The translations under genes were made by a program, and so were the position numbers. From positions 1 through 57,889 of the IMG/VR virus record IMGVR_UViG_3300047551_001006: 57,889 nt of DNA, one strand, 5' to 3'. The DNA is from a virus (Duplodnaviria > Caudoviricetes). Shown piece by piece: positions 47,827 to 57,616 of this stretch. Numbering within the stretch: position 1 is the stretch's first letter; the number at the start of each line of letters is the position of its first letter. The notes beneath the pieces were generated by a model. It was given only the letters and a program-made list of their open reading frames with translations. It made no database searches and had not been told where the DNA came from.

Positions 47827-48684
47827 ATGGGTCTTAATGAGCAAATTCTCGCAGGTGCAACCGCACTAAAGCGTGAAGTATTAACCATTCCAATAGAAAG
47901 TGCACAAACACAATATTCAGGATCTATAGAATTAGGTCGTGCATTAACTATTACTGCGATTCAAGCGAGTAAACGTTGTCGTATTCGTTTTTATGGAAAT
48001 TCAGCAAGTATATATGACGGAACAGAAAAAGCACGACCATTTATATCACAAAGTATTACAGCAACGAATATTGGATTAATAGCTGATATTAATTTAAATA
48101 CCGAAGCATTATTTAATTTGGCTCCACCTCTTTTTGGTGTAAACCTTGACAATCCGGTATCGTCTAATATATATTACACAATTGATTCCAGTTCTGGATA
48201 TAATTTGGATGCAGGAGACAGAATCACGGTTACACGATTTTTGATGGAAGATCCTACAGTTACTAATTTACCTGGGGTCAGTACAAGAACTACTATGATA
48301 ATAAGTGCATCAGCACTAGCATCTGGTAGTCATAGAACGGGAAGTATTAGTTCACCAAAAACATATCTACTCTATGCAGTAGAACCCACCGTAGCACCAA
48401 TCAGACTCAGACTATACACAAGTCAAAGTTATAGAGATAGCGTTACGGAAATTTCCCGTTCATTTGGAACAGAACCATCATCTGGTAGTGGAATCATAGC
48501 AGATATTTATATGGAAGATGTATCACAAACACCACTAATACCAATATTAGTTGGTCGTAATGATAATGATTTATTAAATCCGTCATTATTAGACGCATCA
48601 CCAGAAACATATTATACGATTACAAATGGGTCAGGAACGGGAACGTTTTCTGCATCCGCTTATTTATTTTCATTAGAGGACTAA
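47827..48684 (+). CDS. Hypothetical protein with two tandem homologous halves
   Basis: RIRFY..E.ARPF..GLIADI..YYTI repeated as RLRLY..E.SRSF..GIIADI..YYTI. Confidence 0.6.
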   Translation: MGLNEQILAGATALKREVLTIPIESAQTQYSGSIELGRALTITAIQASKRCRIRFYGNSASIYDGTEKARPFISQSITATNIGLIADINLNTEALFNLAPPLFGVNLDNPVSSNIYYTIDSSSGYNLDAGDRITVTRFLMEDPTVTNLPGVSTRTTMIISASALASGSHRTGSISSPKTYLLYAVEPTVAPIRLRLYTSQSYRDSVTEISRSFGTEPSSGSGIIADIYMEDVSQTPLIPILVGRNDNDLLNPSLLDASPETYYTITNGSGTGTFSASAYLFSLED

Positions 48685-48694
48685 CGAGGTCATT

Positions 48695-49360
48695 ATGAGT
48701 GTGCAAATGTTTCGTGAATTACAAGAATTGATTGACACAGCAGAAAATATTGTTATAGCAGTAATACTTGCAGAAGGATGTGAAAATTACAAGGGTAAGT
48801 TTCTAACAGATTTTGAGCAACAAATTAACTCACAATCTAATCCGGTACACTTACACATCATTTGCTATCGTGAAGAACCTATTATGTTCCCACGACCGAT
48901 GACACAAGCAGTGTATTATTTCGCACCAAAGAATTATACACCACTTTTTTATCGTCAAGGTCAAAGAGCGATGGATGCACCAACTGATATTGTTACGGCA
49001 ATAAAAATGGTACAAGGTATGTCTTATTCCGAAGCAGCCTATGGAGCAGACAAAAAAGAAAGTTATGAACGTACCGAACAATTAGTAAAAAATGAAGATA
49101 CATCAAAGTTTCCTTCGTTGTTTCAACAAGCTCGTAATTTTGCAAAAGAAATGTGGCACGCAGGAAAAAACGCAGCAGTTGGGCTACCAGTATTGGTTGA
49201 TGCAGAAACAGCGTTTAATAGATTCCAAACGTGCCAAGGTTGTGAGTTTTTAACACAAGATAGTTTCCGTTGTGAAAAATGTGGATGTTTTATGAAAACA
49301 AAAACACAAATCGCAACTTCTTCGTGTCCGATTGGAAAATGGCACGCTGTAACACAGTAA
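48695..49360 (+). CDS. Hypothetical protein with C-terminal Cys cluster (CxxC..CxxCGC..CP)
   Basis: 221 aa; CQGC..CEKCGC..SCPIGKW. Confidence 0.65.
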   Translation: MSVQMFRELQELIDTAENIVIAVILAEGCENYKGKFLTDFEQQINSQSNPVHLHIICYREEPIMFPRPMTQAVYYFAPKNYTPLFYRQGQRAMDAPTDIVTAIKMVQGMSYSEAAYGADKKESYERTEQLVKNEDTSKFPSLFQQARNFAKEMWHAGKNAAVGLPVLVDAETAFNRFQTCQGCEFLTQDSFRCEKCGCFMKTKTQIATSSCPIGKWHAVTQ

Positions 49361-49405: not shown

Positions 49406-50137
49406 ATGTTAAGACACTTTCCACTTAGAACATTTACATCATCATTCGCATTTACGGGATCGTCAGCAGCAACGGCATCTTTCGTATTGACGGGTATGAC
49501 CGCATCGTATTCTGTTACGGGTGGTGGACCAACCGGAGCAACGGGGGCAACTTCTGTAGTACAAGGGGTTACGGGTGTTACTGGTGCAACGGGTATAGGA
49601 CCAACAGGACCAATAGGAACCACAGGTCCAACAGGTCCACGGTCAGCAACAGGACCAACTGGACCAACAGGTATCACGGGGCCAACGGGTGCAACTGGTG
49701 CAACGGGGGCGGCATCTACTGGTCCAACCGGTGTAATCGGTGTTTCGGGTAGTACTGGACCAACGGGTGCAACAGGGGCAACAGGTATTATTGGTATCAC
49801 AGGTGCAACAGGTCCAACAGGTGCAAGTGGTCCAACTGGTGTAACAGGTATTCAAGGTATCGCAGGACCACAAGGTGTTACGGGAGCAACTGGACCAACT
49901 GGACCAACTGGTGTAGCTGTATCTGGTATCCAAGGACCAACGGGTGTTACAGGTCCAAGTGGTCCTCGTGGTGCATCGGGTCCGCAAGGAACAATCGGAA
50001 CTACAGGTCCAACAGGACCAACAGGTGCACAAGGTACGGCATTTACAGGACCAACTGGTGCAACCGGTGCAACAGGAGCAACGGGACCAACAGGTGCACA
50101 AGGTTCCACAGGTCCAACTGGTGCTAACACACCATAA
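49406..50137 (+). CDS. Collagen-like protein A
   Basis: 243 aa; FPL..TSSF..TASY N-terminus; ~200-aa Gly-X-Thr tract. Confidence 0.8.
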
Positions 50138-50152
50138 TAGAGAGTAATAGTT

Positions 50153-51274
50153 ATGACGTTTAAGTTTTTCCCATTTGGGGCACCAACCACGAGTTCGTTC
50201 GCTATTTCGGTTGTCGGTACTACGGCAACCGCATCGACGGCTATCAATAGTGGTTCGGGATTCTTAACGGCGTCATTTGCATTAGGCGGATTTTCAGGAC
50301 CAACAGGTGTATCGGGACCAACTGGTGCAACGGGAGCAACAGGCCCAACTGGACCAACTGGTGTTTCTGGGTCAACTGGTGTATTGGGTGTATCGGGTTC
50401 TACTGGACCACAAACATCAGGATCAACAGGTCCAACAGGTCCAAGTGGTCCAAGTGGTATATCGGGGCCAACGGGTCCAACAGGTCCTACTGGAGCAACT
50501 GGTGTAATCGGTATTACTGGACCATCTGGTATTCGTGGTGCAACTGGTGCAACGGGAGCAACAGGTCCAACAGGTCCAACAGGTAGTATAAGTACGACCG
50601 CGGGCGCAATCGGTGTATCGGGTGTTACAGGACCAACAGGATCTTCGGGTCCGACTGGAGTACAAGGGTCCACAGGTCCAACTGGTGTCGGTCCAACGGG
50701 TGCAACAGGACCAACGGGGCCATCGGGTTCTACAGGTCCAACAGGTCCAGTAGGTCCAACGGGTGCAACTGGAGCAACAGGACCACAAGGTGCAACAGGA
50801 CCAAATACGTTCGGTATTTCAGGTCCAACAGGAGCAACGGGTGCAACTGGTGTCGTAGGAGCAACAGGTATACAAGGTGCACCAGGTCGTGCAGTATTTT
50901 TCGTAACAGGTTCATGTAACCAAACACATTCTGACGTTACGGTTCCGCATAGTGATATTGCACAAAGTCATACTAATATTACGGCCGCGCATACAGACAA
51001 TACCACCAATCCATCACACTCGGATATTGTCAGTACTACACCAGCATCACATACGGACAATTATACACCACACACCAATACTACAATCAACGCATCACAT
51101 AGTAATATTACAATAAACGCGTCACATTCTGATATTTCACATTCTAATATTACAATTAACGCAAGTCATACTGATAATACAACAAACTTCCACACAGACA
51201 ATTACACACCACACGGTAATAGTTATACCACCAATAATCATGGAAATTCATACGGCGGAGGTAATCCGTTCTAA
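50153..51274 (+). CDS. Collagen-like protein B with C-terminal H-x-(D/N) repeat domain (P1)
   Basis: 373 aa; ~200-aa Gly-X-Y tract, one Cys, then 14 HxD/HxN motifs (from nt 50927). Confidence 0.8.
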
Positions 51275-51286
51275 TCGGATATAGTT

Positions 51287-51949
51287 ATGGCTCATTCTAA
51301 TTTTTATATAGCCGCATCGCACACCAACGCAGCAGGGTCGCATACCAATAGTACCGCTGCGCACACGGATAATACTACTCCTGCGGCGCATACTAATATT
51401 GCACATCAAAATGCAACTATTCCTGCAGCACATACCGACAACACCACTTCGTTTAGTAACATAGCATTCAGCAACATAGCATTTTCCAATAGTTACACTC
51501 CACACACTAATATCGCACACAGTAACATCGCACATAGTGATGGTGGATTTACAAATACTACAATACCATTTAGTAATATCGCAAAAGCACATACAAATAT
51601 AGCGCATACCGATACACCGAAGTCACATACTGATATTGATTTTAGTAACATAGCATTCGCAAATAATTACACAAGTAATAATCACACAGATAATACTACA
51701 AATCCAGCACATACTGATATCGCACACACCAACAATAGCTCGGCACATACTGATAGTACAATTAACAATTCACACGCAGATAATACAACACTACATTCGA
51801 ATATTGCACATGCAGATTCACCGCATGTCGATTCTTACACTCCGGCACAGTGCTCACAGTGTCCTGGTGGTAATGCAGCAGAATGTGACGAATTCTGCGC
51901 TTGTTATCCAAACTGTGGATGTCAAGATAATATATGTGTAGGTACATAA
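51287..51949 (+). CDS. [H/F]-x-[D/N] repeat protein with C-terminal 8-Cys domain (P2)
   Basis: 220 aa; 28 motifs, then CSQC..C..CAC..CGC..C. Confidence 0.8.
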   Translation: MAHSNFYIAASHTNAAGSHTNSTAAHTDNTTPAAHTNIAHQNATIPAAHTDNTTSFSNIAFSNIAFSNSYTPHTNIAHSNIAHSDGGFTNTTIPFSNIAKAHTNIAHTDTPKSHTDIDFSNIAFANNYTSNNHTDNTTNPAHTDIAHTNNSSAHTDSTINNSHADNTTLHSNIAHADSPHVDSYTPAQCSQCPGGNAAECDEFCACYPNCGCQDNICVGT

Positions 51950-51976
51950 TAAAATGTTTATAATAGGGAATAACTA

Positions 51977-52741
51977 ATGCCAGGTCCTACTCATACAAAC
52001 ATAGCACATAGTGATATAGGATTTAGTAACGTTTCTGCCGCGCATACTGACGTTACTATTAATTCTTCACATACGGATAATACACTTCCGCATGGTAATA
52101 TTGCATTTACTAATAGCACTATTCCCGCAGCACACACAGACAATACAACATTTACAGCACATACCAACACACCACACAGTAATATATCATTTGTTAACAG
52201 TACCACACCATTTAGTAATATTTCTTTTTCAAATAGTTACACACCACATAGTAATATTGGAGCATCGCATACAAATATTGCACACAGTAATACAGCATTT
52301 AGTAACGTAGGATTTAGTAATATCGCACAAGGACACACCAATATATCACATAGTAATATCAGTCATAGCAACATTTCTGCCGCACATACGGACAATACTA
52401 CTAACCTATCACATAATGATACGGGACATGTAGATTCTACAATCAACGCAAGTCACACGGACAATTATACAGGTCCATCGCATAGTGATAATACGACACC
52501 AGCATCGCATAGTGATATCGCATTCTCAAATATCACCATTAATGCATCACATGATGATATTACAATAAATGCAAGTCATACAGATATAGCAAAAGCACAT
52601 ACAGATACAACCATTAACGCATCACACACTAATATCGTCAGCACCACACCAGCGGCACATACAGATAACACTACATCATTTAGTAATAGTTATACTCCAC
52701 ACTCAAATGTTGCGGCAGCCCATAGTAACGCATTCCTATAA
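51977..52741 (+). CDS. [H/F]-x-[D/N] repeat protein (P3)
   Basis: 254 aa; 36 motifs making up almost the whole protein. Confidence 0.8.
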   Translation: MPGPTHTNIAHSDIGFSNVSAAHTDVTINSSHTDNTLPHGNIAFTNSTIPAAHTDNTTFTAHTNTPHSNISFVNSTTPFSNISFSNSYTPHSNIGASHTNIAHSNTAFSNVGFSNIAQGHTNISHSNISHSNISAAHTDNTTNLSHNDTGHVDSTINASHTDNYTGPSHSDNTTPASHSDIAFSNITINASHDDITINASHTDIAKAHTDTTINASHTNIVSTTPAAHTDNTTSFSNSYTPHSNVAAAHSNAFL

Positions 52742-52750
52742 TACGAGAAT

Positions 52751-53614
52751 ATGACGCAATTTTTTCCACTTGGTACACCAACCACATCAAGCTTCTCACT
52801 CACCAGTAGTTTAGCGTTTGTCGCAACGTATGCGGTGAATGTAAATGTGTTAACCGCATCTTACGGACCAGGACCAACAGGACCAACAGGTGTTCGTGGA
52901 CCATCAGGACCAACAGGACCACAAGGACAAGCTGGTTCAGGTTCTACAGGTCCAACAGGTGCAACAGGACCAACAGGATTAACAAGTTCAGGTCCAACAG
53001 GACCAACTGGACCTGCGGGGACAATAGGTATAACAGGTATTACTGGTGCAACGGGTGTAACAGGTAGTACAGGTCCAACAGGACCAACTGGTATCACGGG
53101 TGTAATTGGTATTACGGGTATTAGTGGTGTAACAGGCATCGCATCATTCGCATCGGGTTCTACAGGACCAACTGGAGCAACTGGAGCTACTGGTGCAACG
53201 GGTGTGGTGGGTATTACTGGTGCAACAGGGGTAATCGGTATTACAGGACCAACAGGATTAACAAATCTTGTTGGTATTACAGGCCCAACAGGACCAGTAG
53301 GATTACCCACCACAGGTTCCACAGGTCCGTCAGGTCCACAAGGTGCAACGGGTGTAATAGGTGTTACTGGTATATCCGCAGCAGCTGCATCGGCAGGAAC
53401 GGGTGGAGTGGGAGGTACTACAGGAGTCCAAGGACCAACAGGACCACAGGGTTCTCGTGGAGTTGATGCAGAATGTCCGGCTGGGTTTGTTACCTGTACT
53501 GAAGGATCCCCTTCATCTGGGTCAAATTTCTATACTAATCCAAATAGTAGTATATATTCTGTGGTTTGTGCAGCAAGACCTGTAGGTTGTTTAGGAACAT
53601 TTACTTGTGTCTAA
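52751..53614 (+). CDS. Collagen-like protein C with C-terminal Cys-containing domain
   Basis: 287 aa; FFPLG.PTTSSF N-terminus; ~200-aa Gly-X-Y tract; 5 Cys in the last 50 aa. Confidence 0.8.
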
Positions 53615-53687
53615 CGTCATTTTCTTGATTGTAGGTGTAAAAAATACTACTTATATGAAGGTAGACGTTATGTGGAGATTTTAATAT

Positions 53688-54899
53688 ATGCCAAAGGCAC
53701 CTGGTAGTATTTGGGTTGATGGAGAAACCTTTAGATTTATTGATGCAACAGGAAACGAGTACTATTATACAGGTACTGCGGGTTCCAGTCCTGCGGGAGC
53801 AAAGGCGGGTTCAATCTGGGTAGACGGAAATGATTTCCATTATATTTCCGCTACCGGTGTTGACCGCACTATTGCATCAAGTGATTTGGGAGCGGCATCA
53901 GGAGCAAAGGTTGGATCGGCATGGGTGCAAACCACATTTTGGAATTGGATTTCTACCGCTGGTAATGTTCGTCGTGGTCATACAGACGTAACCGCAGCAC
54001 ATACGGACAATACCACCCCAGCATCCCACACAGATATCGCGTTCGTCAATACCACGATTAACGCAGCACATACAGACAACACGACGATAGCAGCACATAC
54101 AAACAACTATACTCCGCATACAAACACCACGATTAACGCAGCACATACTGATAATACCACCAACGCAAGTCACACAGATATCGCACACACCAACACCACG
54201 ATTAACGCAGCACATACCGATACCACAATCAACGCATCACATACCAACAACTATACTCCACACACTAACACAACGATTAACGCAGCGCATACAGACAACA
54301 CCACACCAGCTGCACATACCGATAATACGACTCCATTTAGTAATATAGCATTTAGTAATTCATACACACCAAATAGTCATACTAACAGCTATACTCCACA
54401 TAGTAATATCGGTCACACCAATATCGGTGCAGCACATACCGATAACACTACACCATTTAGTAATACAGCATTCGTCAATAGTTATACCGGAAATAATCAT
54501 ACCAACAATTACACGCCGCATAGTAATATCGGACATAGTAACATAGGATTTAGTAATATTGGATTCAGTAATATCGGATTCAGCAATATCGCAAAGGCAC
54601 ATACAGATAATACTACTAACGCAAGTCATACCAATATCGCACACAGTAATGTCGGGTTCAGTAACAGTTATACTGGATTTACCAATAGTTATACTCCATT
54701 TAGTAATGTTGGATTTAGTAATATTGGTGTAAGTCATACTAATATTGGACATAGTAATGTAGCACATAGTAATGTCGGTGCAAGTCATACCAATATTGGA
54801 CACAGTAATGTTGGGTTTAGTAATAGTTATACACCATTTGCTAATAGTTACACACCAAATAATCACGGTAACAGTTACCAAGGTGGTCCTTCGTTCTAA
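53688..54899 (+). CDS. Protein with N-terminal 3x GS(I/A)WV domain and 44 [H/F]-x-[D/N] motifs (PA)
   Basis: 403 aa; 97-aa head, then repeats from nt 53979; SD GGAG; TACTTATA at 53648. Confidence 0.82.
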   Translation: MPKAPGSIWVDGETFRFIDATGNEYYYTGTAGSSPAGAKAGSIWVDGNDFHYISATGVDRTIASSDLGAASGAKVGSAWVQTTFWNWISTAGNVRRGHTDVTAAHTDNTTPASHTDIAFVNTTINAAHTDNTTIAAHTNNYTPHTNTTINAAHTDNTTNASHTDIAHTNTTINAAHTDTTINASHTNNYTPHTNTTINAAHTDNTTPAAHTDNTTPFSNIAFSNSYTPNSHTNSYTPHSNIGHTNIGAAHTDNTTPFSNTAFVNSYTGNNHTNNYTPHSNIGHSNIGFSNIGFSNIGFSNIAKAHTDNTTNASHTNIAHSNVGFSNSYTGFTNSYTPFSNVGFSNIGVSHTNIGHSNVAHSNVGASHTNIGHSNVGFSNSYTPFANSYTPNNHGNSYQGGPSF

Positions 54900-54921
54900 T
54901 TATGTTTAACGGATAAATAAT

Positions 54922-55845
54922 ATGTCGCATTCAAATTTTTACAATGCTGCATCACATACTAATGTGGCTACAAGTCATACTAATATTGGATTCAGTAATG
55001 TTGGATTCAGTAACAGCTATACTCCGTTTAGTAATGTCGGATTTAGTAATGTTGGATTCAGTAATAGTTACACCCCACATAGTAATGTAGCACATAGTAA
55101 TGTTGGGGCAAATCATACAAATATTGGTGCAAATCACACGAATATCGGATTTAGTAATGTCGGATTCAGTAATTCATACACACCAAATAGTCATACTAAC
55201 AACTATACCCCACATAGTAATATCGGTCACAGTAATATTGGGCATAGTAACATCGGATTTAGTAATATAGCATTTAGTAATATTGCAAAGGCACATACAG
55301 ATAACACCACAAATGCAAGTCACACCAATATCGCACATACTAATATTGGTGCAGCACATACAGATAGTACTACACCATTCAGTAATATAGCATTTAGTAA
55401 TATTGCAAAGGCGCATACTGATACCACTATCAACGCAAGTCATACAAATATTGCGCATAGTAATATTGGTGCGGCACACACGGATAATACTACCAATCCA
55501 TCACATACTGATAATACTACCAACGCATCACACACCGATATTGCAAAGGCACACACCGATACCACGATTAACGCTTCACATACTGACAATACCACCAACG
55601 CAAGTCATACAGATATTGCGTTCGTCAATACCACCATTAACGCCGCACATACGGATAATACCACTATCGCATCACACACCGATATTGCGAAGGCACATAC
55701 AGACAACACCACACCAGCCGCCCACACAGATAACACCACCCCAGCATCACATACCGACATCGCACATACTAACACTACGATTAACGCAGCCCATACGGAC
55801 AACACCACACCACATAGTGACCAACCAGTATTCGTTGGTCCATAA
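54922..55845 (+). CDS. [H/F]-x-[D/N] repeat protein with 44 motifs (PB), mirror partner of PA
   Basis: 307 aa = MS + 295 aa of repeats + HSDQPVFVGP. Confidence 0.82.
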   Translation: MSHSNFYNAASHTNVATSHTNIGFSNVGFSNSYTPFSNVGFSNVGFSNSYTPHSNVAHSNVGANHTNIGANHTNIGFSNVGFSNSYTPNSHTNNYTPHSNIGHSNIGHSNIGFSNIAFSNIAKAHTDNTTNASHTNIAHTNIGAAHTDSTTPFSNIAFSNIAKAHTDTTINASHTNIAHSNIGAAHTDNTTNPSHTDNTTNASHTDIAKAHTDTTINASHTDNTTNASHTDIAFVNTTINAAHTDNTTIASHTDIAKAHTDNTTPAAHTDNTTPASHTDIAHTNTTINAAHTDNTTPHSDQPVFVGP

Positions 55846-55852
55846 TTGGGGC

Positions 55853-55881
55853 TTGACAAGTGGTGAGCCGTTTGGTATATT
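55853..55881 (+). promoter_or_regulatory. Sigma70-type promoter for the radical SAM operon
   Basis: TTGACA (55853-55858), 17-nt spacer, TGn-extended TATATT (55876-55881). Confidence 0.75.
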
Positions 55882-55910
55882 ACAAAATGATTTATTAATC
55901 ACGAGGTTAT

Positions 55911-57224
55911 ATGACTATTGAATTAGAACCAGTTGGAGTAGTATGTAATTTAAGTTGCCCGTATTGCTACGAACATCCTATGCGCGATGCGGGAAATTTT
56001 CGTCATAAAACATACTCTGTAGAGAAAATGTTAGAAGGTCTTGCCAAAGAGGGACATAACTTTACCTTATTTGGTGGTGAACCATTATTAACTGATATTG
56101 ACGATTTAGAAACTATTTTTAAGTGGGGTTATGAACGTTATGGAATGAATGGCGTTCAAACAAATGGTGTTTTAATCACCGACCGCCACATCGAAATGTT
56201 TAAGAAGTATAACGTTCACGTTGGAGTGTCCCTTGACGGACCCGATGAAATGAACGATACTCGTTGGGCTGGGTCATTAGAAAAGACCAGAGAAGCCACC
56301 CGTAAATCATTTGAAGCTATTAAAAAGTGTTTAGCTAATAAACTATCACTTGGATTAATTATTACCATTCATACAAAGAATGGATTACCAAAACATCGTG
56401 AACGTTTCAAGAATTGGATTAAAGAACTCCAATCGTGGGGTGTTGATGGAGCAAGACTTCATCCATTAGAAATTGACCATAGTGCAGTCGGTGAAACATT
56501 AGCCCTAACACCAGAACAAAATATTGAATTCTTACTTGATATGTGGGAATTTGAACTTAAAGAATTGAACGTTCCTGGTAAAAAGTCATTCCACTTTGAT
56601 ATTTTCCGTGATGTGGAAGATATGTTAAAAGCACAAGATGATAACGCTACGTGTACGTTCTTATCGTGTGACCCATATACTACACACGCGGTGCAAGGTA
56701 TTGACTCGCAAGGTAACAAAGCAAATTGCGGTCGTGGAAATAAGGAAGGTATTAACTGGATTAAGGCCGATGTAGACGGATTCGAACGTCAGATGGCTTT
56801 ATATAATACTCCACAGGAGCATGGTGGTTGTCAGGGATGTCGTTTCTTTATTATGTGTAAGTCGCACTGTCCTGGTACAGGTATTGAGATGGACTGGAGA
56901 AATCGTACTGATACTTGCATGAATTGGAAAGTAGCGTTTGGTATCTACGAAAAGTTGATGGTGGAAAAAGGTGAGACACCATTATCATTAAGTCCAGAAT
57001 TAAAGAAATATGAAGATATTTTAATGTATGGTTATAGTCGCGGTGTAGAACTTAGATTAAAACATATTAAGCAATATCTTGAAGGAAACTTCAATATAGA
57101 AGCATTTATTGACAGTTACCTTAAAAACCAAGCATTTGGATCACAAATACCACATGCAGACCATACTGATGAAACTGGACGTTACGCTATTGAGTATAAA
57201 GAGAAGTACGGATATTTACCTTAA
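55911..57224 (+). CDS. Radical SAM/SPASM-domain enzyme (peptide/protein maturase-like)
   Basis: CNLSCPYC (CxxxCxxC), FGGEPLL, QTNG, VGVSLDG; SPASM-type Cys array CTFLSC..NC..CQGCRFFIMCKSHCP..C; SD GAGG. Confidence 0.92.
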   Translation: MTIELEPVGVVCNLSCPYCYEHPMRDAGNFRHKTYSVEKMLEGLAKEGHNFTLFGGEPLLTDIDDLETIFKWGYERYGMNGVQTNGVLITDRHIEMFKKYNVHVGVSLDGPDEMNDTRWAGSLEKTREATRKSFEAIKKCLANKLSLGLIITIHTKNGLPKHRERFKNWIKELQSWGVDGARLHPLEIDHSAVGETLALTPEQNIEFLLDMWEFELKELNVPGKKSFHFDIFRDVEDMLKAQDDNATCTFLSCDPYTTHAVQGIDSQGNKANCGRGNKEGINWIKADVDGFERQMALYNTPQEHGGCQGCRFFIMCKSHCPGTGIEMDWRNRTDTCMNWKVAFGIYEKLMVEKGETPLSLSPELKKYEDILMYGYSRGVELRLKHIKQYLEGNFNIEAFIDSYLKNQAFGSQIPHADHTDETGRYAIEYKEKYGYLP

Positions 57225-57244
57225 CATTAAAGAGGATATGTAAA

Positions 57245-57616
57245 ATGATTGACGGATTACACGCAGACCATATAGACACAACTGGTGCCTACGGTCAAAA
57301 ATTCGCAGTAGTACAAGAACTACTCGAAACAGGAGTACTAAAAGAAATTCCAGAGGAATTCCGTGAAAAGGGTGCAGAAAGTGTACCAGTAGTAACTACT
57401 TCACAAACAGTAATTGGTGATGAATTTGATATGACCAACGGACATGCTGATCACGTTGACGAAACTGGTCGCTATGCACGTGCATATGAAGAACGATTCG
57501 GTGCAGGATCACTTGGTGAATCATCAAACTCACAACAAGAAGAACAAGCTGGTAATTCATGGAAGTCTTTCTTACAAAAGATTATCGCTGAAGAAAAGAG
57601 TAAGTTGAAGGTTTAA
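57245..57616 (+). CDS. Small acidic protein with two HADHxDxTGxY motifs
   Basis: 123 aa; LHADHIDTTGAYG and GHADHVDETGRYA; the motif also ends the radical SAM enzyme. Confidence 0.75.
   Translation: MIDGLHADHIDTTGAYGQKFAVVQELLETGVLKEIPEEFREKGAESVPVVTTSQTVIGDEFDMTNGHADHVDETGRYARAYEERFGAGSLGESSNSQQEEQAGNSWKSFLQKIIAEEKSKLKV

What the first reader, a model, noticed from the sequence alone, without database searches (positions are those of the whole stretch)
50927..52741. Three repeat proteins interlock by the same code into a predicted three-way (Y-shaped) junction
Seen: P2 (51287) intervals 27 back to 4 (5,5,7,9,7,5,9,9,5,5,7,5,7,7,5,5,5,7,5,5,7,9,5,9) equal P3 (51977) intervals 1-24 exactly, and all 14 Phe motifs in this arm face His motifs. 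The rest of P3 (intervals 26-35: 9,5,9,9,7,9,11,7,7,7) mirrors P1 (50153) intervals 10 back to 1 (9,5,9,9,7,11,9,7,7,7). The only difference is a swapped 9/11 pair of equal total length, and both 11-mers contain IVSTTPA. The last two P1 intervals (7,9) mirror the first two of P2 (9,7). Each chain has one left-over linker (8, 7 and 9 aa) at the branch point. Inference: P1, P2 and P3 assemble like a DNA three-way junction. One arm is tied to the collagen stalk of P1, the long arm ends in the 8-Cys domain of P2, and there is one short arm. This would be a genetically programmed branched fibre, a natural form of protein origami.
Basis: partly seen in the sequence, partly recalled or inferred. Interest (0 to 1): 0.95.

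Follow-up and report, generated by a model that had tools for sequence, protein, structure and literature searches.

The report
Three-chain mirror-coded branched phage fibre
Three neighbouring tail-fibre genes of an uncultured phage encode strands whose irregular bead spacing fits together in mirror image, so they very probably zip into one fibre with a short side arm, a way of building a fibre that I found described in no paper.

Summary
P2 intervals 27 to 4 equal P3 intervals 1-24 exactly (0 of 5000 shuffles reach it). P3 intervals 26-35 mirror P1 intervals 10 to 1 except for one 9/11 swap: 10 of 11 bead positions coincide (0 of 100000 random draws). No Phe bead faces a Phe bead.

Related phages support physical pairing:
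- A second phage (L010) has the same three-gene layout. Its long arm has different content (25 intervals) and is again mirrored exactly.
- Other phages carry the same fibre as two chains (P1 and P2 fused) or as one fold-back chain.
- One phage (L029) lost 36 residues from both strands of the P1:P3 arm.

The split between P1 and P2 carries a stop/start end-cap cassette homologous to the P5/P6 junction, whose caps lie at the end of a 43/43 mirrored duplex. So the two long arms are well supported. The short third arm is inferred by homology only.

Shape, copy number, and the role of the radical SAM/SPASM gene found next to the fibre genes in all 25 loci where it could be seen remain untested. Structure prediction gave nothing usable.

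This scan had already noted the two-chain form, and single-chain branched forms, on other DNA. My literature searches found no published description.

The parts
50153..51274 (+). P1: N-terminal segment, collagen G-x-y region (aa 46-247), then 14 [H]x[ND] motifs from aa 259
   Evidence: (PF01391, E 4.5e-25)
50927..51175 (+). P1 arm (motifs 1-11, 80 aa) that mirrors the C-terminal arm of P3
51167..51190 (+). P1 left-over 8-aa unit at the branch point
51191..51271 (+). P1 short-arm units (7, 9) and C-terminal end cap, homologous to the P5 C-terminus
51272..51286 (+). TAA stop plus 12 nt; P1 and P2 lie in the same reading frame
51287..51349 (+). P2 N-terminal end cap and short-arm units (9, 7), homologous to the P6 N-terminus
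51341..51361 (+). P2 left-over 7-aa unit at the branch point
51362..51832 (+). P2 long arm (motifs 4-28, 154 aa), exact mirror of P3 motifs 1-25
51833..51946 (+). P2 C-terminal domain with 8 Cys, the distal tip of the long arm
51992..52462 (+). P3 long arm (motifs 1-25, 154 aa) facing P2
52454..52480 (+). P3 left-over 9-aa unit spanning the branch point
52481..52738 (+). P3 C-terminal arm (motifs 26-36, 80 aa) facing P1
53688..54899 (+). P5: globular N-domain (aa 1-97) plus 44 motifs; outgoing strand of the reference two-chain fibre
54922..55845 (+). P6: 44 motifs, exact 43/43 mirror of P5; returning strand
55911..57224 (+). Radical SAM/SPASM enzyme (CX3CX2C and CX2CX5CX3C), present after the last fibre gene in 25 related loci

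Best explanation
P1, P2 and P3 are the strands of one tail-fibre shaft from a family in which an outgoing and a returning strand lie antiparallel and in register.

The pairing rules. Each strand is a string of [His/Phe]-x-[Asn/Asp] beads separated by 5, 7 or 9 residues. Two strands fit only if:
- their bead spacings are mirror images;
- a Phe bead meets a His bead;
- a 7-residue unit of the HTDNTTP kind meets one of the HTNIGAA kind.

The layout in this phage. The outgoing strand is cut into P1 (fixed to a collagen stalk) and P2 (ending in an 8-Cys tip domain). P3 is the returning strand that bridges both. Its N-terminal 154 residues pair with P2 and its C-terminal 80 residues pair with P1.

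The cut. It carries a stop/start end-cap cassette of the kind that closes the P5/P6 fibre. I therefore infer that the P1 end and the P2 start pair with each other as a short side arm (two or three rungs plus caps). That gives a three-way junction with one unpaired unit per chain.

Shown: the mirror code, its partner specificity and its covariation. Inferred: physical pairing, the side arm, the geometry, and maturation of the beads by the neighbouring radical SAM/SPASM enzyme.
For: Within the window:
1. Exact mirror of 24 intervals for P2:P3, and 10 of 11 anchored positions for P1:P3.
2. Partner specificity: non-partner and parallel comparisons give runs of 8 or fewer intervals in the window, against 24 and 43 for partners.

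Covariation in relatives:
3. L010 has the same three genes with a long arm of 25 intervals. Its middle differs from the window's and is mirrored exactly.
4. L029, L030 and L036 carry P1+P2 as one chain, mirrored 33/33 and 28/28 by a P3-like chain.
5. L029 lacks four units (36 aa) on both strands of the P1:P3 arm.
6. L013, L031, L016 and L058 carry the whole fibre as one self-mirrored fold-back chain.

Pooled over 23 partner pairs:
7. Rungs are His-Phe 450, His-His 271, Phe-Phe 9. Permutation mean for Phe-Phe is 78, and 0 of 5000 permutations reach 9 or fewer.
8. 7-residue units face each other as 7a/7b 260 times, 7a/7a 10 times and 7b/7b 10 times; 18 were unclear.

Other lines:
9. A reversed residue spacing cannot arise by any DNA rearrangement, and the region has no inverted DNA repeats.
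10. The P1-end/P2-start DNA is 77% identical to the P5-end/P6-start DNA, and that cap pair closes a 43/43 duplex.
11. The AlphaFold2 model of a one-chain relative, built with a 41-sequence alignment, is confident only for the N-domain (pLDDT 90-98) and for a C-terminal strand, residues 284-287 (pLDDT 91). All other strands of the model lie in residues 8-97, so the two chain ends meet.
Against: - The short arm alone is not significant (4669 of 5000 shuffles match it). It has the same intervals in both three-gene loci, so it gives no covariation.
- The three-gene layout was seen in only 2 loci (the window and L010) among the loci fetched.
- No structure model of the repeats exists: pLDDT is under 50 throughout them.
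- The mirror is not perfect everywhere. L009 and L024 have a 2-aa register shift and only 22 of 38 and 22 of 37 rigid coincidences. L011 and L028 have 38 motifs facing 44.
- Nine Phe-Phe rungs exist.
- Distant relatives with 4-5-residue spacing show no detectable mirror. In the wider family only 4 of the 47 proteins with 12 or more motifs in a run have at most 1 of 300 shuffles reaching their mirror count.
- The 23 pairs are related phages, so the pooled counts overstate independence.
- The copy number is unknown. Three collagen chains (P0, P1, P4) of about 201 aa could form a heterotrimer or three homotrimers.
Confidence: 0.6

Rival explanations
1. Nicked straight fibre. P1 and P2 sit end to end on P3 as in the two-chain relatives. 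The extra ends at the nick do not pair with each other. They are loose flaps, or they bind something else, for example the like-coded caps of P5/P6 or a host surface. There is then no true third arm.
For: The two-chain relatives show a continuous duplex across this site. The short-arm match is no better than chance by itself. The P1 cap resembles the P5 cap and the P2 cap resembles the P6 cap, so cross-pairing between fibres is conceivable.
Against: The same two cap types lie at the paired end of every complete two-chain P5/P6 fibre of the window's type examined. The short-arm 7-residue units follow the 7a-faces-7b rule in both three-gene loci. P3 carries an extra 9-aa unit exactly at the nick that the two-chain relatives lack.
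Confidence: 0.25
2. The repeats are chiefly substrates of the radical SAM/SPASM enzyme: very long RiPP-like precursors whose aromatic-x-Asn/Asp triplets are closed into three-residue cyclophanes. On this reading the spacing reflects enzyme processing and not strand pairing.
For: The motif fits the aromatic-X-X definition of triceptides (PMC11499958, text read). A radical SAM/SPASM gene follows the fibre genes in 25 loci. Its best NCBIfam matches include cyclophane-forming maturases.
Against: Enzyme processing does not explain why two different chains keep mirror-image spacings through matched changes. The genes lie in a tail-fibre module and one is fused to collagen. All NCBIfam scores are far below the family cut-offs (73 bits or less against 300 or more). 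The two readings are compatible: stapling could serve a paired fibre.
Confidence: 0.08
3. The mirror is a by-product of shared ancestry or chance among low-complexity repeats, and the three proteins form separate fibres.
For: All chains are built from the same few unit types. Parallel comparisons also give runs of up to 13.
Against: Runs of 24 and 43 were reached by 0 of 5000 shuffles. Reversed order cannot be inherited through DNA. The mirror is kept while the content changes in related phages.
Confidence: 0.03

Closest known systems
Needle domain of the phage T4 long tail fibre tip, gp37 (PDB 2XGF), as described in PMC12609058 (passages read)
   Same: The chain runs out to a head domain and doubles back, so outgoing and returning strands lie antiparallel in a thin shaft. 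Regularly placed His motifs line the core. A tip domain sits at the turn, and the chain end returns to the collar. One-chain relatives of the window's proteins show the same out-and-back order.
   Different: No HxH motif occurs in any of the five chains, and there is no Pfam gp37 match. The seven T4 HxH motifs are not mirror-spaced. Here the strands are up to 44 beads long in the window and 102 in a relative. Phe can replace His. The strands can be separate gene products, three of them in this fibre. A radical SAM gene is linked. Trimer state and metal binding are unknown here.
Triceptides and their three-residue cyclophane-forming radical SAM/SPASM enzymes (PMC11499958, text read)
   Same: An aromatic-X-X triplet with His or Phe first, repeated in the substrate, with a radical SAM/SPASM gene next door.
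   Different: The substrates here would be 220-400-aa virion fibre proteins with 14-44 motifs each, not short leader-bearing peptides. The enzyme reaches no curated family cut-off. No cross-link has been measured.
Two-chain and one-chain mirror-coded fibres noted earlier by this scan on other DNA (e1-5784384, e1-5784373, e1-5969647; branched one-chain forms e1-5913733, e1-5706943)
   Same: The same bead motif, mirror rule, covariation and radical SAM neighbour. I saw the same two-chain and one-chain forms in my own loci.
   Different: Here the outgoing strand is itself split by an end-cap cassette, so three separate proteins must meet at one point. The earlier branched cases were single chains.
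Collagen-like phage tail fibre proteins (Pfam PF01391)
   Same: P1 carries about 200 aa of G-x-y repeats with a significant Pfam match, in a tail-fibre module.
   Different: The collagen part is only the stalk. The finding concerns the non-collagen bead region.
DNA three-way junctions and designed coiled-coil protein origami (recalled, no call)
   Same: Three strands, each pairing with the other two over separate stretches, with unpaired residues at the branch.
   Different: This is an analogy of topology only. The pairing here is between protein strands through unit length and residue type.

Membership tests
T4 gp37-type needle (Pfam PF20744 gp37_trimer) | Sequence match to the family profile | tested here: not met
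   No Pfam hit to it at E <= 0.01 for P1, P2, P3, P5 or P6. No PDB sequence hit at E <= 10. The ESM Atlas first hit to a gp37_trimer cluster scored only 0.78, which is a lead and not evidence.
T4 gp37-type needle (Pfam PF20744 gp37_trimer) | His-x-His motifs that bind iron along the axis | tested here: not met
   0 HxH in all five chains. The motif is [HF]x[ND]. Metal binding is not testable here.
T4 gp37-type needle (Pfam PF20744 gp37_trimer) | Chain doubles back so that two antiparallel strands per subunit form the shaft | tested here: met
   At sequence level only. One-chain relatives are self-mirrored (39/39, 23/23 intervals; 56 and 102 motifs). The AlphaFold2 model brings the C-terminal strand to the N-domain.
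T4 gp37-type needle (Pfam PF20744 gp37_trimer) | Homotrimer giving a six-stranded barrel | not testable with these tools
   Limits on residues and on chains per job excluded a 3:3:3 job, and the monomer models are unreliable in the repeats.
Triceptide RiPPs | Aromatic-X-X motif as cross-link site | tested here: met
   78 [HF]x[ND] motifs in P1-P3. Phe is always followed by Asn at +2: 42 of 42 in the five chains.
Triceptide RiPPs | Dedicated radical SAM/SPASM maturase of a named cyclophane-synthase family | tested here: inconclusive
   CX3CX2C and CX2CX5CX3C are present. The N-terminal 150-170 aa match YhhB, AmcB, GrrM/OscB, FxsB and XyeB at 38-68 bits, against cut-offs of 310-450.
Triceptide RiPPs | Short precursor peptide with leader, released as a small product | tested here: not met
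   Proteins of 220-403 aa, one fused to collagen, in a tail-fibre module.
Triceptide RiPPs | Aromatic-to-C-beta carbon-carbon bond | not testable with these tools
   Needs mass spectrometry or NMR.
Pentapeptide repeat proteins | Pfam match above the gathering score | tested here: not met
   P2: Pentapeptide_4, 18.1 bits against 38. P5: Pentapeptide_2, 22 bits against 26.4. The 7- and 9-residue units break the five-residue period.
Collagen-like tail fibre | G-x-y triple-helix repeats | tested here: met
   P1: PF01391, E 4.5e-25, 87.6 bits against 27.2. The span is aa 46-247. This applies to the stalk only.

The most novel reading that the evidence does not exclude
The fibre family uses a real pairing code between protein strands (unit length, His/Phe choice, two complementary kinds of 7-residue unit). 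The code is specific enough that strands encoded by separate genes find their place. A portable stop/start end-cap cassette can cut a strand and create a branch with a second tip. Phages would then build branched fibres of programmed arm lengths by recombination among repeats, possibly stapled bead by bead by a virion-directed radical SAM enzyme.
Probability: 0.4. Interest if true: 0.92.

Novelty: categorically new. Interest (0 to 1): 0.86.

Why it matters
If the three chains assemble as read, this is a natural case where the geometry of a protein fibre is written in a simple, readable code. That geometry includes arm lengths, the point of branching and which chain meets which. The code also changes in step in separate genes.

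- It would give structural virology a new fibre scaffold beyond triple beta-helices, coiled coils, collagen and the gp37 needle.
- It would offer protein design a natural strand-pairing rule set.
- It would extend radical SAM peptide chemistry from small natural products to virion proteins, if the linked enzyme acts on the beads.
- It predicts a fibre with two different tips: the 8-Cys domain and the end-cap pair. That bears on how these uncultured aquatic phages recognise hosts.

Tried and rejected
Structure prediction
- AlphaFold2 on a one-chain relative (L016, 288 aa) without an alignment gave mean pLDDT 40.9 and was unusable. With a 41-sequence alignment only the N-domain and the last strand were confident; the repeats stayed under 50.
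- Complex prediction with P1(259-373)+P2+P3 gave no verdict (score 0.00 in both runs, partner fold uncertain, controls not run). It counts neither for nor against binding.

Fold and sequence searches
- Foldseek of the model against the PDB gave no match at E <= 0.001. Against BFVD it gave one unnamed relative.
- PDB sequence searches with P5 and the L016 protein gave 0 hits at E <= 10.
- The ESM Atlas first hit was a gp37_trimer cluster at 0.78, below the level that means anything.

Searches for relatives
- The search for homologous proteins with P3 found only 3 short proteins.
- The search for related loci with P3 returned 3 loci on contigs I already had. With P2 it returned none. With the alignment A4 it returned 10 loci, of which 2 were on new contigs; neither has the three-gene layout.
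- blastn against named phages matched only the collagen parts.

Ideas rejected
- A pentapeptide-repeat beta-helix: Pfam scores are under the cut-offs, and it does not explain the mirror.
- Origin by inverted DNA duplication: 0 inverted repeats.
- T4 gp37 as a mirror-spaced precedent: its seven HxH motifs lie at 883, 915, 929, 966, 980, 989 and 998 and are not mirrored.
- Collagen length covariation as a test of stoichiometry: the spans are about 201 aa in all 11 loci examined, so there is nothing to covary.

Limits of the mirror
- Distant relatives with HxD every 4-5 residues (L044, L045, L048) show no mirror above shuffles.
- Of the 150 listed library representatives, 47 had 12 or more motifs in a run. 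Only 4 of those had at most 1 of 300 shuffles reaching their mirror count.
- In one search, 28 of 55 non-duplicate best-partner rows had 90% or more of the shorter arm mirrored without gaps. The other 27 fall into five groups:
  - chains whose partner lies off the contig;
  - the two P1 arms, where only 11 of 14 motifs are expected to pair;
  - pairs with a small register shift (L009, L024, L037, L041, L042);
  - the L011 deletion;
  - the three distant loci.

Literature
- Full-text searches found no paper on this fibre or on a radical SAM enzyme acting on phage fibres.
- I read passages of PMC13434306, PMC12801897 and PMC7029224; they were not relevant to the code.
- Supplements were not opened.
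Full report
WHAT IS THERE

The window is a 57,889-base viral record, estimated about 30% complete. It carries a myovirus structural module: portal, major head protein, sheath, tube and tail-fibre-like proteins.

Genes from 49406 to 57616, all on the + strand:
- P0: a collagen-like chain.
- P1: collagen plus 14 beads.
- P2: 28 beads plus an 8-Cys end.
- P3: 36 beads.
- P4: collagen plus a Cys-rich end.
- P5: a globular N-domain plus 44 beads.
- P6: 44 beads.
- A radical SAM/SPASM enzyme.
- A small gene.

A 'bead' is the triplet [His/Phe]-x-[Asn/Asp]. Successive beads are 5, 7 or 9 residues apart, rarely 8 or 11.

THE OBSERVATION

Every number in the finding was reproduced.
- P2 read backwards from interval 27 to 4 equals P3 intervals 1-24, 154 residues on each side. 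No shuffle out of 5000 came near; the best run was 13.
- P3 intervals 26-35 and P1 intervals 10 to 1 both span 80 residues, and 10 of 11 bead positions coincide. The exception is the 9/11 swap around two 11-residue units that both contain IVSTTPA. With both ends anchored at the natural chain ends, 0 of 100000 random draws and 124 of 100000 shuffles of P1's own intervals do as well. Judged only by the longest exact run (5), this arm would not stand out.
- The 7,9 against 9,7 match of the P1 end and the P2 start is real but is what chance gives.
- The 14 Phe beads of the long arm all face His. On its own this has a chance of 0.066.
- The neighbouring pair P5/P6 shows the same thing on a larger scale: 43 of 43 intervals mirrored and 0 Phe-Phe facings among 44 rungs, chance 0.004.

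WHY THIS MEANS PAIRING

A reversed order of residue spacings cannot be produced by duplication or inversion of DNA. The region has direct repeats only and no inverted ones. The mirror must therefore be kept by selection on the proteins.

I fetched relatives from viral and metagenome contigs with P5-like, P3 and P2-like queries. I parsed every repeat-bearing open frame the same way.

Partner chains mirror each other although the interval strings differ from phage to phage:
- L009: 43/43.
- L010: 46/46.
- L026: 44/44.
- L029: 33/33 and 43/43.
- L030: 28/28 and 44 of 44-45.
- L013: 37 of 38.

Non-partner chains and parallel comparisons give short runs only.

In one search, 28 of 55 non-duplicate best-partner rows had at least 90% of the shorter arm mirrored without any gap. 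The remaining 27 fall into five groups:
- chains whose partner lies beyond the contig end;
- the two P1 arms, where only 11 of 14 beads are expected to pair;
- pairs with one small register shift;
- one deletion variant;
- three distant loci without a detectable mirror.

A SERIES OF ARCHITECTURES

The collagen-borne fibre exists in three forms.
- One chain. The outgoing and returning arms flank a Cys-rich tip domain (L013, L031, the L014 group), or they meet at a tight turn made of a single 11- or 12-residue unit (L016, L058).
- Two chains. P1 and P2 are fused, ending in the Cys domain, and a P3-like chain returns (L009, L024, L029, L030, L036).
- Three chains. This form occurs only in the window and in L010.

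The P5/P6 fibre likewise exists as one chain (L016, L037, L040, L041, L058) or as two.

The AlphaFold2 model of the one-chain L016 protein was built with 41 aligned relatives. It is confident only for the N-domain (pLDDT 90-98) and for a strand at residues 284-287 (pLDDT 91). All other strands of the model lie in residues 8-97, so that last strand can only be paired with the N-domain. The two ends of the chain therefore meet, as a fold-back requires.

THE THREE-GENE FORM

L010 is a different phage: its P5/P6 have 47 beads and its radical SAM protein is 93% identical. It has the same P1 (14 beads), P2 (29) and P3 (37).

Its long arm has 25 intervals. It shares the first 8 and the last 4 with the window, differs in between, and is mirrored exactly by its own P2. 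The arm that faces P1 is the same in both loci.

That P1:P3 arm does change in the two-chain phage L029. Four units (36 residues), including the 11-residue unit, are missing from both strands, and the pair is again an exact mirror. So both long arms of the proposed junction show matched change.

At the place where the fused chain of L009 or L029 runs on, the window has three things:
- the end of P1 (an 8-residue unit, then 7, 9 and a cap);
- a TAA and 12 bases;
- the start of P2 (a cap, then 9, 7 and a 7-residue unit).

P3 has one extra 9-residue unit opposite that point.

The DNA of this stop/start cassette is 77% identical to the P5-end/P6-start junction, and the peptides are plainly alike. 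In P5/P6 those caps are the last rungs of the duplex.

The simplest reading is that an end-cap cassette was recombined into a continuous strand, and that the two caps still pair. That makes a short side arm.

This step is inference. The short arm is identical in interval pattern in the only two loci that have it, so it cannot be tested by covariation. Its one 7-residue facing does follow the rule described next.

A SECOND LAYER OF CODE

Pooled over 23 partner pairs:
- Rungs are His-Phe 450, His-His 271 and Phe-Phe 9. Shuffling labels within chains gives 78 Phe-Phe on average, and 0 of 5000 permutations give 9 or fewer.
- 7-residue units come in two kinds, one like HTDNTTP or FSNSYTP and one like HTNIGAA or HTDIAKA. 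They face each other across kinds 260 times and within a kind 20 times (18 unclear).
- The pairs come from related phages, so these counts are not independent events. The bias is nevertheless large.

Phe is always followed by Asn: 42 of 42 in the window.

HOW IT MAY WORK

The nearest described structure is the needle of T4 gp37. [quoted passage not shown]

The window's proteins are not members of that family:
- they have no HxH;
- they have no profile match;
- the T4 motifs themselves are not mirror-spaced.

The bead also fits the aromatic-X-X site of triceptides (PMC11499958). A radical SAM/SPASM gene with both cysteine motifs follows the last fibre gene in all 25 loci where that position could be seen, at 45-93% identity. 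Its matches to named cyclophane synthases are far below their cut-offs.

Still open:
- whether the beads bind metal, are stapled, or both;
- whether each arm is a two-strand ribbon or three such ribbons round an axis.

The three collagen chains P0, P1 and P4 have spans of about 201 residues in all 11 loci examined. That allows a heterotrimer with one P1 per fibre, or three homotrimers.

NOVELTY

Five full-text searches found no paper on such a fibre.

This scan had already noted the two-chain mirror code, and single-chain branched forms, on other DNA. I reached my reading before seeing those notes and tested the two-chain and one-chain claims on my own loci.

What this finding adds is a junction made of three separate gene products, and the cassette that creates it.

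VERDICT

The partition of P3 between P2 and P1 is strongly supported. The third arm and the Y shape are plausible but unproven.

Noticed in passing
window 51272-51289: P1 and P2 are in the same reading frame, separated only by TAA and four sense codons before the ATG. L010 has the same 1134-nt start-to-start distance. Read-through of the stop would turn the short arm into a closed hairpin.
   Followed up: partly
L011:8001-9074 and L028:133-1188: The P5-like chain has 38 beads while its P6-like partner has 44. The missing block is one copy of a near-identical 40-aa tandem duplication present in L009. This could be a real bulged variant or a collapsed assembly.
   Followed up: partly
window 55911-57616: The radical SAM/SPASM protein ends in a His-x-Asp-rich tail, and similar stretches occur twice in the 123-aa protein encoded next. 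That small gene follows the enzyme in 22 related loci.
   Followed up: partly
window 47827-49360: Two genes upstream of the collagen genes (285 aa, and 221 aa with a Cys-rich DUF6171-like end) are conserved in the same place in 15 related loci. Function unknown.
   Followed up: no
L058:2680-5289: A single 869-aa chain with 102 beads whose 101 intervals form a palindrome around one 12-residue unit. This is the longest fold-back form seen.
   Followed up: partly
L043:548-1318: Here a Cys-rich domain (10 Cys) sits at the N-terminus of the returning chain instead of the C-terminus of the outgoing one. The tip domain can therefore belong to either strand.
   Followed up: no
window 53688-53985 (P5 N-domain): Three internal repeats of a Trp-Val-Asp-Gly hairpin motif form a domain that AlphaFold2 models with pLDDT 90-98 in a relative. 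Foldseek finds no solved fold for it at E <= 0.001.
   Followed up: partly
window 49406-53614 (P0, P1, P4): Three collagen-like chains have like N-termini and G-x-y spans of about 201 aa, invariant in all 11 loci examined. This is compatible with a heterotrimeric stalk but not tested.
   Followed up: partly
window 51230-51274 and 54860-54899; L010 equivalents: Within each phage the P1 cap resembles that phage's own P5 cap in its last residues more than it resembles the other phage's cap. This hints at exchange between the two junctions.
   Followed up: no
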